A stretch of 64,000 bases of DNA. It comes from a virus. Taxonomy: Duplodnaviria; Caudoviricetes. A model generated the notes under the pieces. It worked only from the letters and a program-made list of their open reading frames with translations, had not been told where the DNA came from and searched no databases. The DNA is taken from positions 20,485 through 84,484 of the IMG/VR virus record IMGVR_UViG_3300014205_000204. One strand, 5' to 3'. This document shows, piece after piece, positions 13,677-51,409 of the stretch. Made by a program: the position numbers and the translations under genes. Positions within the stretch are counted from its first letter, which is position 1, and every line of letters starts with the position of its first letter.

Positions 13677-14273
13677 ATGGCAAACATACCAGAAACCAGC
13701 TTTATCCCGCGCGCCGGCACGGATATCGCGAAGAACATGTCCGCCGGCTTCGCTAAGGCTTCCGCTGCGATGAGGGGCATGTTCGGCGCCCAGCCGGGCA
13801 AGACGGCGGCAAATAACCAGGGTTACGCCGCCAAGGCACCGCAGGCGACGTTCAGTTCCATCGCCCCGTTCAAGGCCAAGGACATCGGTACCGTCACTAC
13901 GAGGCCTAACGAGTCGACACGGTTCGAGAAGTCGCATCCCGGCATCGACATCGCGAACAAGGAAGGAACGGCCATCCCGGCATTCACGCCGGGCAAGGTG
14001 ACGAAGGTCGTCAGCGGCCAGAAGCCCGGTACGAAGGGATACGGGAACTATGTGGTGGTCACGGACAGCCAAGGGAACAGGCACCAGTACTCGCACCTCC
14101 TCAAGACGTACGTGAACGTCGGGGATGCCGTGGGTGCCGCGAGTCCCGTGGGTGCCATGGGACGCACGGGCAGCGTTTATTCAACCAGCGGGGGCACTGG
14201 GACGCACCTTGACTATCGTGTCGCTGACGCGTTCGGGAAGTGGATCGACCCTACTAAATACGTCAGCATCTAA
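13677..14273 (+). CDS. M23 family peptidase (virion-associated lysin)
   Basis: HPGIDIA (HxxxD), GYGNYVVV, YSHL, GTHLDY (HxH variant). Confidence 0.85.
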   Translation: MANIPETSFIPRAGTDIAKNMSAGFAKASAAMRGMFGAQPGKTAANNQGYAAKAPQATFSSIAPFKAKDIGTVTTRPNESTRFEKSHPGIDIANKEGTAIPAFTPGKVTKVVSGQKPGTKGYGNYVVVTDSQGNRHQYSHLLKTYVNVGDAVGAASPVGAMGRTGSVYSTSGGTGTHLDYRVADAFGKWIDPTKYVSI

Positions 14274-46999: not shown

Positions 47000-47476
47000 T
47001 CACTTTTCGAGGATGTGGATAACCTTCTCTACTATTTCCTCGGTGAGGCCAACCATATGATTGACTATCACCTTATTGTTGGCCTGTTCGGGTAGGAACT
47101 CATCGAAATCGTCAATGATTACGTACCCCTCAACCGGGTCATGCTTCTCCAGCCAGTCCCGGATCTCGTACCCTCGCTCCAGTCTGTTGACTCTGGCAAG
47201 GTTGACCTCGTGATCAGGAAGGTCCAGCTTGTGGAATGACTCAGTTCGGCCAAGGAAATTGAACACCAGCCCATTCGCCTTCAACACGTCCTCCCAGTTT
47301 TTCATGTGCCTCCAGTCAGACGAGAGTACGAAGCGGTATCCATTGATCTCCGCCATCCTGTTGATCAGGAAGACCTTGTACGGATCAGTAGCCAGGAGAT
47401 ACCCCTTCTTTGACGTCCTGGTTGGTGTCATCTGGGTGTTCAGGACGCCGTCGATGTCGAGGAATATTACTTTCAC
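47000..47476 (-). CDS. HAD-superfamily hydrolase (HAD_SAK_2-like)
   Basis: KVIFLDIDGVLN, LSSDWR, RGYEI..WL, YVIIDD. Confidence 0.85.
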   Translation of the reverse strand: MKVIFLDIDGVLNTQMTPTRTSKKGYLLATDPYKVFLINRMAEINGYRFVLSSDWRHMKNWEDVLKANGLVFNFLGRTESFHKLDLPDHEVNLARVNRLERGYEIRDWLEKHDPVEGYVIIDDFDEFLPEQANNKVIVNHMVGLTEEIVEKVIHILEK

Positions 47477-47543: not shown

Positions 47544-48365
47544 TTATTTGGTGGTGGTGAGGTTTAGGAAGGGAAGGGTGGAGCCAGGGATCATCTGCAC
47601 TGGGAGAATGCCGTTCCACTTGGTGATGGCCTGAAGCTGGACATAATTTTCCCCGCCTTGCTGCTGGATGGCCTCTGCCTGGATCTTGATGGCTCTTGCC
47701 TCAGCTTCGGCCTGGGCTACCCTCTGTTCTGCTTCCATCTGCACCTTGACGAGGACGTTCTTGGCCTTCTCGGCATCCTGCTGGGCTACTTGCTTGGACT
47801 CGATTGCTTTCTCGTACTCATCGGAGAAGTCCTCATTGACCAGTGAATAGTTCGTCACGGTGAACAGTTCTTTCGGTATCTTTTCCATGAAGGCGAACTC
47901 GATCTGTGACTGTGCCTCTGAACGCTTGGAGATGAGTTCCTCAGCCGTGAACCTAGCGATGGTGGTCTTGACGCTGGTCTCCAGAATCGGAACAAGGACA
48001 CGGTCTTCATAGTCCAGGCCAAGCTGCTTATACAAGTCTCCGACGGCGCTTGGGTTGAGGTTATAGTTGACAGCTGAATGGATAGTGACTAACTGGAGGT
48101 CTTTTGAGTATGACTTGGACTCATTCACCTCAAGCTTTTGGGTCCGGATGTTGTACTTTACCACTCTCTGCATCACCGGAACCTTCACGTGCAGGCCAGG
48201 CTGGACGACCTGCTCCCCGACCTTCCCCCAAGTCAGCACGAGGCCGCGCTCGGAGGAGTCGATCTTGTAGAACGGGTTGAAGACGAACAGGATGATCAGG
48301 CCGACGATAGCCGCAATCAAACCGAGTATCACCTTGGCCTCGACCGGTATTTCCTTTAAGGTCAT
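47544..48365 (-). CDS. SPFH/prohibitin family membrane protein
   Basis: N-TM, GLVLTWGKV, PGLHVKVP, SKDLQ, AIESKQVAQQ, KWNGILP. Confidence 0.92.
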   Translation of the reverse strand: MTLKEIPVEAKVILGLIAAIVGLIILFVFNPFYKIDSSERGLVLTWGKVGEQVVQPGLHVKVPVMQRVVKYNIRTQKLEVNESKSYSKDLQLVTIHSAVNYNLNPSAVGDLYKQLGLDYEDRVLVPILETSVKTTIARFTAEELISKRSEAQSQIEFAFMEKIPKELFTVTNYSLVNEDFSDEYEKAIESKQVAQQDAEKAKNVLVKVQMEAEQRVAQAEAEARAIKIQAEAIQQQGGENYVQLQAITKWNGILPVQMIPGSTLPFLNLTTTK

Positions 48366-48380: not shown

Positions 48381-48584
48381 TTAGTTATTATCCTCTTTCC
48401 ATGCCTCATACTTGTCGGAGCACCTGTCGTAACCGCGCTCATCCTCGCCTGTCTTGATGCCTCGCTTAGCGCACCATGCCGTCATCTTTGCGGAGTTGAA
48501 GGCAAATACGACTGTAGTGGAGAGCAAGCCGATGATAGCGATCACGATCAAGAGCTCGATCAAAGTGAAGCCTTTGTTCCTCAT
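48381..48584 (-). CDS. minimal type IV prepilin-like protein (67 aa)
   Basis: MRNKG|FTLIELLIVIAIIGLLSTTVV class III signal (G-1, F+1, E+5); short two-Cys tail. Confidence 0.85.
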   Translation of the reverse strand: MRNKGFTLIELLIVIAIIGLLSTTVVFAFNSAKMTAWCAKRGIKTGEDERGYDRCSDKYEAWKEDNN

Positions 48585-48588
48585 AGCG

Positions 48589-49017
48589 TTATTTCTTTTT
48601 CCGTTCCTCCTCATCCATCAGTGGTTTGGCTACTTCCTGGTAGAACTTTTCAGCAGTCTCCTTGTTGGAGAACAGCCAATCAATGAAGGTGTCTCTCCCC
48701 TCGTCAGTGAGGAGCTCCTCTCCATCGATTATGTCGAGCTTCCGGAAAGTCTTGTATGGTTCCTTCGCGAGCAGCTGTTTGAACGTCTTCCTTATGGACA
48801 TAATAGTCTTGTTTATTGGGTTAGCATCCTTGTCGATGTTCTTTCCTTCCTCTCCCACTATTTCCAATGCTCTTTTGGCGCAGCGACCGCAGATTACAGC
48901 TGCTGTCTCTCCAGTGGAGACTGGCATCATGATGTCGGAGGCGACTAGACTTACCTTGTGGCCAAAGGTCCCACAGAAGTCGCATTTTCCTCGAGAGCCG
49001 GTGTCGGACAGCCTCAT
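48589..49017 (-). CDS. hypothetical protein with N-terminal Zn finger
   Basis: CDFC...CGRC. Confidence 0.55.
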   Translation of the reverse strand: MRLSDTGSRGKCDFCGTFGHKVSLVASDIMMPVSTGETAAVICGRCAKRALEIVGEEGKNIDKDANPINKTIMSIRKTFKQLLAKEPYKTFRKLDIIDGEELLTDEGRDTFIDWLFSNKETAEKFYQEVAKPLMDEEERKKK

Positions 49018-50695: not shown

Positions 50696-51409
50696 TTACC
50701 AGTTATCCTTCCGTACCTTCAGAAGGAATGAGTTTACGGATTCCATGTCGCATTTCTTGTCCTTGTCGGGGAACCTGTCGTAGGCTCCTTCAACTAGGTT
50801 ACGGTAGTGGGATGCCATTGTGGTCACTTCCCCAACCATTTCCGGGGTTACTTCCTTGGCGTTCTTCCATTTTAGCAGCTTCTTCCTCAGCTCTTCGTCG
50901 TCCACCAGGATTTTTAGTTCTCCGGTTTCCAGGAGGACCTTGCACTGCCACAGAGCTCTCACATCCTCCACCGAGTACTTCTGAACCCTGTCGTCGTGCC
51001 GGTCCATGAACTTCTTCTCCTGGTTCTTGGAATAGCCCATGAATGCGTCCATGACCCTCTTCGGCTCCCAAATGACGGGGAACAGGGACCGGAGTTCCAT
51101 GCCAAGTTCCGTCGTCTCGTCCTCCTTGACCGGCGAACACATGACCTCAAGGATCGCCGGGTTGCACTTGGTGGCGAGATAGAGGAACCTCCCCAGCTCG
51201 TACTGCGTGTCGTCCTCCTTTCCTTCCACCCACGAAGTGTCCCTGGCGCTGCTGTTGAGCTTGAGGATCTCGGAGGTCGGCTCGATGAACACTCCCCTCC
51301 AGTCGAAGTCAGAGTCCTCCCGGTTCAGCCCGTGAGCCCTGCTTCCCACAAGCGTCTTCAGTATCGTTTTCATATTTTTAGCCATCTTGAGATTAACCTC
51401 TTCCACCAC
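50696..51409 (-). CDS. Pol-beta superfamily nucleotidyltransferase
   Basis: VGSRAHGLNREDSDFDWRGVF, YELGRF, KCNPAILE. Confidence 0.88.
   Translation of the reverse strand: MVEEVNLKMAKNMKTILKTLVGSRAHGLNREDSDFDWRGVFIEPTSEILKLNSSARDTSWVEGKEDDTQYELGRFLYLATKCNPAILEVMCSPVKEDETTELGMELRSLFPVIWEPKRVMDAFMGYSKNQEKKFMDRHDDRVQKYSVEDVRALWQCKVLLETGELKILVDDEELRKKLLKWKNAKEVTPEMVGEVTTMASHYRNLVEGAYDRFPDKDKKCDMESVNSFLLKVRKDNW

What the first reader, a model, noticed from the sequence alone, without database searches (positions are those of the whole stretch)
48381..48584. Phage-encoded minimal type IV pilin: possible pilus decoy
The ORF has an intact prepilin-peptidase signal (KG|FTLIELLIVIAIIGLL) followed by only about 40 residues with two cysteines and no pilin head, next to an SPFH membrane protein. 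Incorporation could stall or alter host pili, giving superinfection exclusion or, in a CPR host, changing attachment to its own host cell.
Basis: partly seen in the sequence, partly recalled or inferred. Interest (0 to 1): 0.7.

Follow-up and report, generated by a model that had tools for sequence, protein, structure and literature searches.

The report
Phage headless pilin paired with SPFH
A 98.6-kb uncultured phage encodes a 67-residue pilin with an intact processing signal but no head domain, fixed next to a prohibitin-like membrane scaffold gene; the pair recurs in many unrelated phages and probably tampers with the host's pili, but no one has tested this.

Summary
Window 48381-48584 (-) encodes a 67-aa protein with a textbook prepilin signal (MRNKG|FTLIELL; Pfam N_methyl 36 bits). 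It has two conserved cysteines and no room for a head domain. The contig is a circular 98.6-kb phage.

- **Already in print:** headless phage pilins and the decoy idea were noted, untested, in 2026 (PMC12952977).
- **SPFH pairing:** the neighbouring SPFH gene is a fixed partner, not a bystander. Ten viral contigs fetched by the pilin alone carry an SPFH homologue beside the mini-pilin. Fifteen of 80 viral SPFH loci carry a mini-pilin, against about 0.7 expected by chance. The cultured Aeromonas phage 44RR2.8t has the same pair. No cellular SPFH locus examined has it, and I found no paper on the pairing. This scan had already noted the pair on other DNA.
- **Family:** four relatives of 66-73 aa share a W-C...G-I...C...Y hairpin.
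- **Host:** the pilin stalk matches Patescibacteria (CPR) pilins in 50 of 201 genomes, and in 0 of 200 genomes of the phylum it was binned with. A CPR host is plausible, about 50%, but unproven.
- **Function:** interference with type IV pili is inferred only.

The parts
48381..48584 (-). Headless mini-pilin gene (67 aa, P0001). The leader MRNKG is at 48570-48584. The predicted mature protein of 62 aa has a hydrophobic alpha1 helix followed by a short helical hairpin with Cys38 and Cys55.
   Evidence: Translation. PF07963 scores 36 bits and TIGR02532 scores 35.3 bits. The AlphaFold2 model has helix 8-41, a loop, and helix 54-66, with mean pLDDT 79. Homologues P0002 and P0014-P0016 keep W37, C38, G42, I43, C55 and Y59.
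47544..48365 (-). Prohibitin-like SPFH/Band_7 membrane protein (273 aa) with one N-terminal transmembrane helix. It is the conserved partner of the mini-pilin and starts 15 nt downstream of it.
   Evidence: Pfam Band_7 scores 104 bits and phrog_200 gives E 1.6e-46. A profile search of solved structures is closest to prohibitin-2 (E 4.8e-44), then HflK/HflC. The gene is adjacent to mini-pilins in 10 viral loci from the pilin side and 15 of 80 from the SPFH side.
48589..49017 (-). Upstream 142-aa Cys-rich (zinc-ribbon-like) protein. Its stop codon lies 4 nt before the mini-pilin start. It is possibly co-translated; whether it belongs to the module is uncertain.
   Evidence: ORF list and sequence. 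Only sub-threshold zinc-finger Pfam hits. One weak homologue sits upstream of the SPFH gene in L119. No promoter- or terminator-like site lies on the minus strand between 50198 and 46800.

Best explanation
This is a two-gene phage membrane module. One gene encodes a headless type IV pilin; the other encodes a prohibitin-like SPFH scaffold. They lie in one leftward gene run with the phage's replication, repair and tRNA genes, with no promoter- or terminator-like site between them.

**Shown**
- The pilin has a complete class III signal.
- Its stalk is of the Patescibacteria pilin type.
- Its 30-residue tail carries two conserved cysteines.
- It is linked to an SPFH gene across otherwise unrelated phages.

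**Inferred from established pilin biology**
- The host prepilin peptidase cuts after Gly5 and methylates Phe6.
- The 62-residue product then sits in the cytoplasmic membrane with its disulfide-stapled hairpin outside.
- Because it keeps Glu+5 and a host-like alpha1N, it enters the same assembly pathway as the host pilins.
- Lacking a head, it either poisons or competes for the assembly machine, or it is built into altered fibres.

**Inferred for the partner**
- By homology to prohibitin and HflK/C, the SPFH protein would form a cage on the outer face of the membrane.
- This cage could corral the mini-pilin, the pilin pool or the pilus machine.

**Expected outcome**
- Loss or change of type IV filament function early in infection.
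- This would exclude pilus-dependent rival phages.
- In a CPR host it would also change DNA uptake and attachment to the CPR cell's own host.
For: **Signal.** Family HMMs score above their cut-offs. G-1, F+1, T+2 and E+5 are invariant in all 15 SPFH-linked mini-pilins, while their tails are hypervariable and mostly carry 2 or 4 cysteines. Conservation of Glu+5 points to pilus-assembly chemistry rather than a plain membrane anchor; this step is inference.

**Real gene family.** P0002 is 69% identical. P0014-P0016 are 66-73 aa and share W37, C38, G42, I43, C55 and Y59.

**Module.**
- The mini-pilin and the SPFH are the only two gene families shared by all 11 loci.
- 15 of 80 viral SPFH loci carry a mini-pilin, usually 15-430 nt downstream on the same strand. 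About 0.7 loci would be expected from the motif rate in G000.
- Aeromonas phage 44RR2.8t has ORF098c (SPFH) followed by ORF097c, a 72-aa two-Cys mini-pilin.
- The 16 cellular SPFH loci examined have no adjacent pilin: none found within about 1.5 kb.

**Compartment.** The SPFH is closest to prohibitin and HflK/C, whose cages face the periplasm-equivalent side. Paired cysteines in the pilin tails suggest the same side.

**Stalk mimicry.** Matches occur in 50 of 201 Patescibacteria genomes against 0 of 200 genomes of the bin's phylum. The 44RR2.8t stalk differs from this one (14 of 36 positions shared). By recall only, it looks like the proteobacterial pilin type.

**Precedent.** Phage P-FimU replaces host FimU in the pilus and blocks rival phages. 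Truncated phage PilA proteins have been proposed to act likewise (PMC12952977).
Against: - No experiment exists for any headless phage pilin.
- Most phage SPFH genes of this subfamily are followed by other small membrane proteins or lipoproteins, not pilins. The partner slot may therefore be generic and unrelated to pili.
- Gene order here (pilin then SPFH) is the reverse of every other locus found.
- Two SPFH-linked mini-pilins have no cysteines.
- The host is unknown, so the presence of a matching peptidase and pilus machine cannot be checked.
- In Pseudomonas aeruginosa, deleting all nine SPFH genes left swarming, which needs type IV pili, unchanged (PMC13086221). SPFH proteins have no established link to type IV pili.
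Confidence: 0.45

Rival explanations
1. The mini-pilin is only a small bitopic partner of the SPFH scaffold, filling the role NfeD plays in cellular SPFH operons. The module then acts on the membrane in general, for example by stabilising it, timing lysis or modulating FtsH-type proteolysis. The prepilin signal would serve only for insertion and maturation, with no effect on pili.
For: The slot downstream of phage SPFH genes holds varied small membrane proteins and lipoproteins, often 2 nt after the SPFH stop codon. SPFH operons with a small membrane partner are an established pattern (PMC13086221). The closest solved relatives are prohibitin and HflK/C. By established knowledge these enclose AAA proteases, and HflK/C sets lambda CII stability.
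Against: The peptidase and assembly residues G-1, F+1 and E+5 are strictly conserved while the tails are hypervariable. The stalk tracks a particular host pilin type. The mini-pilin has no NfeD domain. Headless pilins also occur in phages without an SPFH neighbour: KVP40.0030, PX29 gp038 and several IMG/VR loci.
Confidence: 0.27
2. The mini-pilin helps rather than harms a type IV filament. It might act as a priming or tip subunit, or as a Geobacter PilA-N-like short pilin. It would keep a pilus or pseudopilus working during infection, for example for DNA uptake that supplies nucleotides or to keep an epibiont host attached.
For: The best matches among solved structures are the 61-residue Geobacter PilA-N pilins, which do assemble. 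P-FimU is incorporated without loss of pilus function.
Against: PilA-N needs a separate head protein encoded next to it (established knowledge). Here the only neighbours are the SPFH and a zinc-ribbon protein. The helix is about 34 residues, which by recall is shorter than a full pilin stalk.
Confidence: 0.12
3. The ORF is a decaying remnant of a captured host pilin gene and has no function.
For: Phages do carry full-length pilins.
Against: Five clusters at 50% identity keep the same length and both cysteines. There is no downstream pilin-head remnant, only 15 nt before the next gene. The pairing with SPFH recurs in unrelated phages.
Confidence: 0.03

Closest known systems
Truncated phage PilA-like proteins (about 60 residues) of six virulent Pseudomonas phages, and P-FimU of F10-like prophages (Sztanko et al., Cell Rep 2026, PMC12952977)
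   Same: A phage-encoded pilin with an intact N-terminus, and for the truncated set, no head domain. The proposed role is the same: enter or block the type IV pilus and exclude rival phages. P-FimU is shown experimentally to be incorporated and to protect.
   Different: A protein search of 50,697 phage records gave no Pseudomonas phage match at E<=0.01, so this is not the same sequence family. The paper never mentions SPFH or prohibitin. This protein has a conserved disulfide hairpin and a CPR-type stalk. P-FimU is a full-length minor pilin.
Aeromonas phage 44RR2.8t ORF098c (SPFH, 307 aa) plus ORF097c (72-aa N-methyl-motif protein)
   Same: The same two-gene arrangement in a cultured T4-like phage. 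An SPFH gene is followed 53 nt later by a mini-pilin with two cysteines. Both Pfam hits were tabulated in 2006 without comment (PMC1524935).
   Different: The gene order is SPFH then pilin. The SPFH is only 32% identical over 60 residues. By recall the stalk looks proteobacterial; it shares 14 of 36 positions with the window's stalk. The tail is unrelated.
PHROG phrog_13280 (Vibrio phage KVP40 gene KVP40.0030 and relatives, 66 aa)
   Same: Phage mini-pilins of the same length. The HMM match covers positions 1-65 of the protein (E 1.3e-8). Identity is 32-35% across 97% of the query.
   Different: Similarity beyond the signal is weak and there is one cysteine rather than two. There is no SPFH neighbour; the flanking genes include a thymidylate synthase and a hydrolase.
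Geobacter PilA-N (geopilin domain 1; PDB 2M7G, 6VK9, 7TGG)
   Same: A naturally short (61-residue) type IV pilin made almost only of alpha1. It is the best sequence match among solved structures (E 6e-6 to 5e-4).
   Different: The match covers only residues 3-39. By established knowledge, PilA-N pairs with a separately encoded head protein, PilA-C. No such partner is present here, and PilA-N has no disulfide hairpin.
Cellular SPFH-NfeD operons (QmcA-YbbJ, FloA-NfeD) and the HflK/C and prohibitin cages
   Same: An SPFH scaffold is encoded beside a small membrane-anchored partner. The phage SPFH is a clear prohibitin and HflK/C relative.
   Different: The partner is a prepilin, not an NfeD OB-fold protein. 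None of the 16 cellular SPFH homologue loci examined has a pilin beside it.

Membership tests
Type IV pilin / pseudopilin (class III signal proteins) | Short basic leader ending in Gly-1, then Phe/Met+1 and Glu+5, then about 20 hydrophobic residues; family HMM above cut-off | tested here: met
   The sequence reads MRNKG|FTLIELLIVIAIIGLL. PF07963 scores 36 bits against a cut-off of 21.2. TIGR02532 scores 35.3 bits against 16.3.
Type IV pilin / pseudopilin (class III signal proteins) | Globular alpha-beta head domain packed on the C-terminal half of alpha1 | tested here: not met
   Only about 38 residues follow the hydrophobic helix, and the next gene starts 15 nt after the stop. The AlphaFold2 model is helix 8-41, a loop, and helix 54-66. 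All 80 cellular pilins with the same leader that are complete have 100 aa or more.
Type IV pilin / pseudopilin (class III signal proteins) | C-terminal disulfide-bonded loop (typical of type IVa pilins) | tested here: inconclusive
   Cys38 and Cys55 are invariant in five homologues.
Type IV pilin / pseudopilin (class III signal proteins) | Cleavage and N-methylation by a prepilin peptidase, and assembly into a filament | not testable with these tools
   The host is unknown. The bin genome has one A24 peptidase next to a pilin, but it is probably not the host.
Truncated phage P-PilA family of Pseudomonas phages (PMC12952977) | Sequence relatedness to the roughly 60-residue PilA N-terminal proteins of six Pseudomonas phages | tested here: not met
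   A tblastn search of the phage collection gave no Pseudomonas phage record at E<=0.01. The protein is the same kind of thing but not the same family.
phrog_13280 (KVP40.0030-like mini-pilins) | Full-length HMM match with similarity beyond the shared signal | tested here: inconclusive
   E 1.3e-8 over positions 1-65. However, the KVP40 tail shares little with this one and has one Cys, and the genomic context differs.
SPFH / prohibitin family (neighbouring gene) | Band_7 domain above cut-off, N-terminal membrane helix and C-terminal coiled-coil region | tested here: met
   PF01145 scores 104 bits against a cut-off of 23.6. The profile matches prohibitin-2 at E 4.8e-44 over residues 31-252. A hydrophobic stretch at roughly residues 12-29 is seen directly in the sequence.
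SPFH-NfeD operon | Partner protein carries an NfeD domain | tested here: not met
   The Pfam scan of the mini-pilin returns only N_methyl above cut-off.

The most novel reading that the evidence does not exclude
The SPFH plus headless-pilin cassette is a widespread, phage-specific two-component device. The prohibitin-like cage and the processed pilin stub act together to shut down or rewire type IV filament machines. In this phage it targets the pili of a Patescibacteria (CPR) host. Infection would then alter the epibiont's DNA uptake and its attachment to its own host cell. This would be a virus manipulating a bacterium-on-bacterium symbiosis.
Probability: 0.2. Interest if true: 0.8.

Novelty: new variant of a known kind. 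Interest (0 to 1): 0.5.

Why it matters
Type IV pili are common phage receptors. In CPR bacteria they are also the organs of host attachment and DNA uptake. Headless phage pilins are common but functionally untested.

A fixed SPFH partner gives the first mechanistic handle on them. It would also give phage SPFH ("prohibitin") genes, which are widespread and unexplained, a candidate job.

The 44RR2.8t pair makes the question testable in a cultured Aeromonas system today. If the CPR-host reading holds, this is one of the few concrete candidate host-takeover genes for a CPR phage.

Tried and rejected
**Tools and searches that gave nothing**
I therefore could not read the genomic context of P0002 or P0014-P0016.
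- A word search limited to residues 28-67 found only the query itself.
- Foldseek against the PDB found no match for the 67-residue model.
- PADLOC gave no hit for the pilin, the SPFH or the two upstream genes.
- Complex prediction on SPFH plus mini-pilin gave no verdict. This is evidence neither for nor against binding.
- The look-up of sequencing runs listed no RNA holder.

**Host tests that were uninformative**
- No 22-mer is shared between the phage contig and the rest of the bin, so there is no spacer or att match.
- The phage RecA is 34% identical to the bin's RecA and 35-40% identical to CPR RecAs.
- No close TnpB was found in 301 CPR genomes at E<=1e-50.

**Readings rejected**
- Pseudogene or remnant: the length and cysteines are conserved and there is no downstream remnant.
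- Membership of the KVP40 family as a true orthologue.
- The bin genome as the host (see the host section of the full report).
- SPFH adjacency as coincidence.

Full report
**1. The observation**

Window 48381-48584 on the minus strand encodes 67 residues. They begin MRNKG|FTLIELLIVIAIIGLL and end in a polar, highly charged tail with Cys38 and Cys55.

- The prepilin motif passes both curated models: Pfam N_methyl at 36 bits (cut-off 21.2) and NCBIfam TIGR02532 at 35.3 bits (cut-off 16.3).
- The upstream gene stops 4 nt before this ATG. A longer 77-codon start would overlap that gene. The closest homologue also starts MRNKG. I therefore take the 5-residue leader as real.
- The stop codon lies 15 nt before the next gene, so no head domain or frameshifted remnant can follow.
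- The next gene, 47544-48365 (-), is an SPFH/Band_7 protein (104 bits).

**2. The replicon**

The window lies on contig C4 of a 4.85-Mb, 295-contig assembly. C4 has a 127-bp terminal overlap, which makes it a circle of 98,563 bp. It carries an SU10-adaptor-like structural gene, primase-helicase, SbcCD, a RecA, an IS200/IS605-type transposase gene and four tRNAs. It is a phage.

The pilin and SPFH genes sit in the long leftward arm among replication, RNA-repair and tRNA genes. No promoter- or terminator-like site lies between 50198 and 46800 on that strand.

**3. Relatives of the mini-pilin**

An exhaustive profile search of 1.84 billion representative proteins returned 31,580 pilin N-termini. 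Only a handful matched over the full length.

- P0002 is 66 aa and 69% identical.
- P0014, P0015 and P0016 are 69-73 aa.
- Beyond the signal, all of them share W37, C38, G42, I43, C55 and Y59.
- The C-terminal pattern was found in no other genome among 185,579 species representatives. All complete cellular pilins with the same leader have 100 aa or more.
- AlphaFold2 gives a helix (8-41), a loop and a second helix (54-66), with mean pLDDT 79. This is a stalk with a small stapled hairpin and no head.
- The best solved relatives by sequence are the short Geobacter PilA-N pilins, and only over the stalk.

**4. The SPFH partner**

I fetched 80 IMG/VR loci using only the pilin N-terminus. Ten of the 17 complete mini-pilin loci (mature length 115 aa or less) carry a homologue of the window's SPFH protein directly beside the pilin, at 33-47% identity. 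None of the loci with larger pilin-like proteins does.

- All-against-all clustering shows that the mini-pilin and the SPFH are the only two gene families shared by all 11 loci. The flanking genes differ.
- Searching from the SPFH side, 15 of the 80 best viral SPFH loci carry a prepilin ORF. It usually lies 15-430 nt downstream on the same strand.
- The motif rate in the 4.85-Mb bin genome predicts about 0.7 such loci.
- Five SPFH homologue loci from the bin's phylum and eleven from Patescibacteria have no pilin within about 1.5 kb.
- The same pair exists in a cultured phage. In Aeromonas phage 44RR2.8t, ORF098c (SPFH) is followed 53 nt later by ORF097c, a 72-aa MKG|FTLIELM protein with two cysteines. 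Both Pfam hits were listed without comment in 2006 (PMC1524935).
- In the window the order is pilin then SPFH. Everywhere else it is SPFH then pilin.
- The other viral SPFH loci are followed by different small membrane proteins or lipoproteins.
- KVP40.0030, PX29 gp038 and Acibel004 gp97 have no SPFH neighbour.

**5. What the conserved features say**

Across the 15 SPFH-linked mini-pilins, G-1, F+1, T+2 and E+5 are invariant. The tails are hypervariable in length and sequence, and mostly hold two or four cysteines.

- From established pilin biology, Gly-1 is needed for cleavage and Glu+5 for assembly. I read this conservation as selection for entry into the pilin pathway; that reading is inference.
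- Paired cysteines suggest an extracytoplasmic tail.
- The SPFH profile is closest to prohibitin-2 (E 4.8e-44), then HflK/HflC. The cages of these proteins face the periplasm-equivalent side. The two proteins probably share a compartment; this too is inference.

**6. The host**

The contig was binned with a 4.85-Mb genome. That genome's class contains closed genomes of 1.3-1.9 Mb. It has only one Mur-ligase-family gene at 95% completeness. I infer, without proof, a wall-less Dehalococcoidia-like organism.

Evidence against this genome as the host:
- No 22-mer is shared with the phage contig.
- The phage RecA is only 34% identical to the bin's RecA.
- The phage carries a Peptidase_M23 domain in its particle gene block, which suggests a host with peptidoglycan.
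- The bin's pilins share 13-16 of 36 stalk positions with the mini-pilin, against 19-21 for CPR pilins.

Evidence for a CPR host:
- In matched samples at E<=1e-7, the mini-pilin matches 0 of 200 other genomes of the bin's phylum. It matches 50 of 201 Patescibacteria genomes, at up to 66% identity over residues 2-42.
- Across all species genomes with the same leader, the top matches are Kaiserbacteria, Woesebacteria, Saccharibacteria and Paceibacterota.
- The best one, a groundwater Kaiserbacteria genome, has 55.4% GC at that locus, against 55.8% for the phage.
- The best cellular SPFH matches in Patescibacteria score 195 bits in open frames of about 273 aa, the same length as the phage protein. 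The bin's phylum gives 168 bits in longer frames.
- The phage DNA is held by a groundwater run and a landfill run.

I put a CPR host at about 50%. Each of the two large tallies includes one unpublished genome: G173 and G359. No conclusion depends on either.

**7. Comparison with the literature**

Sztanko et al. (PMC12952977) showed that prophage P-FimU is built into the Pseudomonas pilus and blocks tip-binding phages. They also noted a family of roughly 60-residue truncated PilA proteins in six virulent Pseudomonas phages. They proposed, without testing, that these either incorporate or block assembly.

That paper never mentions SPFH or prohibitin. No paper in the library combines SPFH, bacteriophage and prepilin, or prohibitin, pilin and phage genome.

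Earlier agents of this scan had already noted an SPFH-plus-pilin-start pair on other DNA. I found and tested the pairing independently here.

**8. Verdict**

The decoy reading is reasonable but is neither new nor tested.

What this window adds:
- a distinct disulfide-hairpin subfamily;
- a CPR-type stalk;
- quantitative evidence that headless pilins and prohibitin-like SPFH proteins form a recurrent, phage-specific cassette, with a cultured example in which it can be tested.

Noticed in passing
window 13677-14273 (+), domain at 13932-14252: A 198-aa protein with a Peptidase_M23 domain (64 bits) sits inside the particle and ejection gene block. It is probably a virion-borne peptidoglycan endopeptidase. 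This implies a walled host and argues against the apparently Mur-ligase-poor bin genome as host.
   Followed up: partly
G000 contig C4 (whole phage), other contigs of the bin: Amidase_2, Phage_lysozyme, SLT, GH25, Amidase_3 and CHAP domains are not found on the phage contig. Several small contigs of the bin do carry them (C8, C13, C19, C22, C45, C65, C67, C68, C165). Contigs C20, C23, C25, C216 and C223 carry homologues of this phage's genes. The bin, at 6.4% contamination, probably holds other phage fragments.
   Followed up: no
L294, L299, L304, L340, L344, L346, L347 (IMG/VR), gene just after the SPFH gene: A second recurrent SPFH partner is a protein of about 150-180 aa starting MKLFDRTGGHWLFW... 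with hydrophobic stretches. It often starts about 2 nt after the SPFH stop codon. Other loci have lipoprotein-like partners. Phage SPFH genes seem to come with interchangeable small envelope partners.
   Followed up: no
L105-L165 and others (IMG/VR loci): Dozens of large viral contigs encode prepilin-signal proteins of about 300-320 aa with the motif ...LLPAVQ.AREAARR..C.NNLKQ.... By recall this looks like the DUF1559 type seen in Planctomycetes. It would be a separate class of phage-borne pilin-like proteins.
   Followed up: no
window 47000-47476 (-) and 50696-51409 (-): A HAD_SAK_2 domain protein and an RlaP nucleotidyltransferase, both from the 'Swiss Army Knife' RNA-repair system families, flank the pilin-SPFH pair near the tRNA cluster.
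   Followed up: no
L103, L104, L308, L334, L335, L337 (IMG/VR): Another mini-pilin subfamily, about 75-86 aa mature, has a conserved tail ...GINGxTESRCIxGYKFxxxxxGxxxQxxDEFGxGVxC.... In L308, L334/L335 and L337 it lies within 2.5 kb of an SPFH gene but is not always directly adjacent.
   Followed up: no
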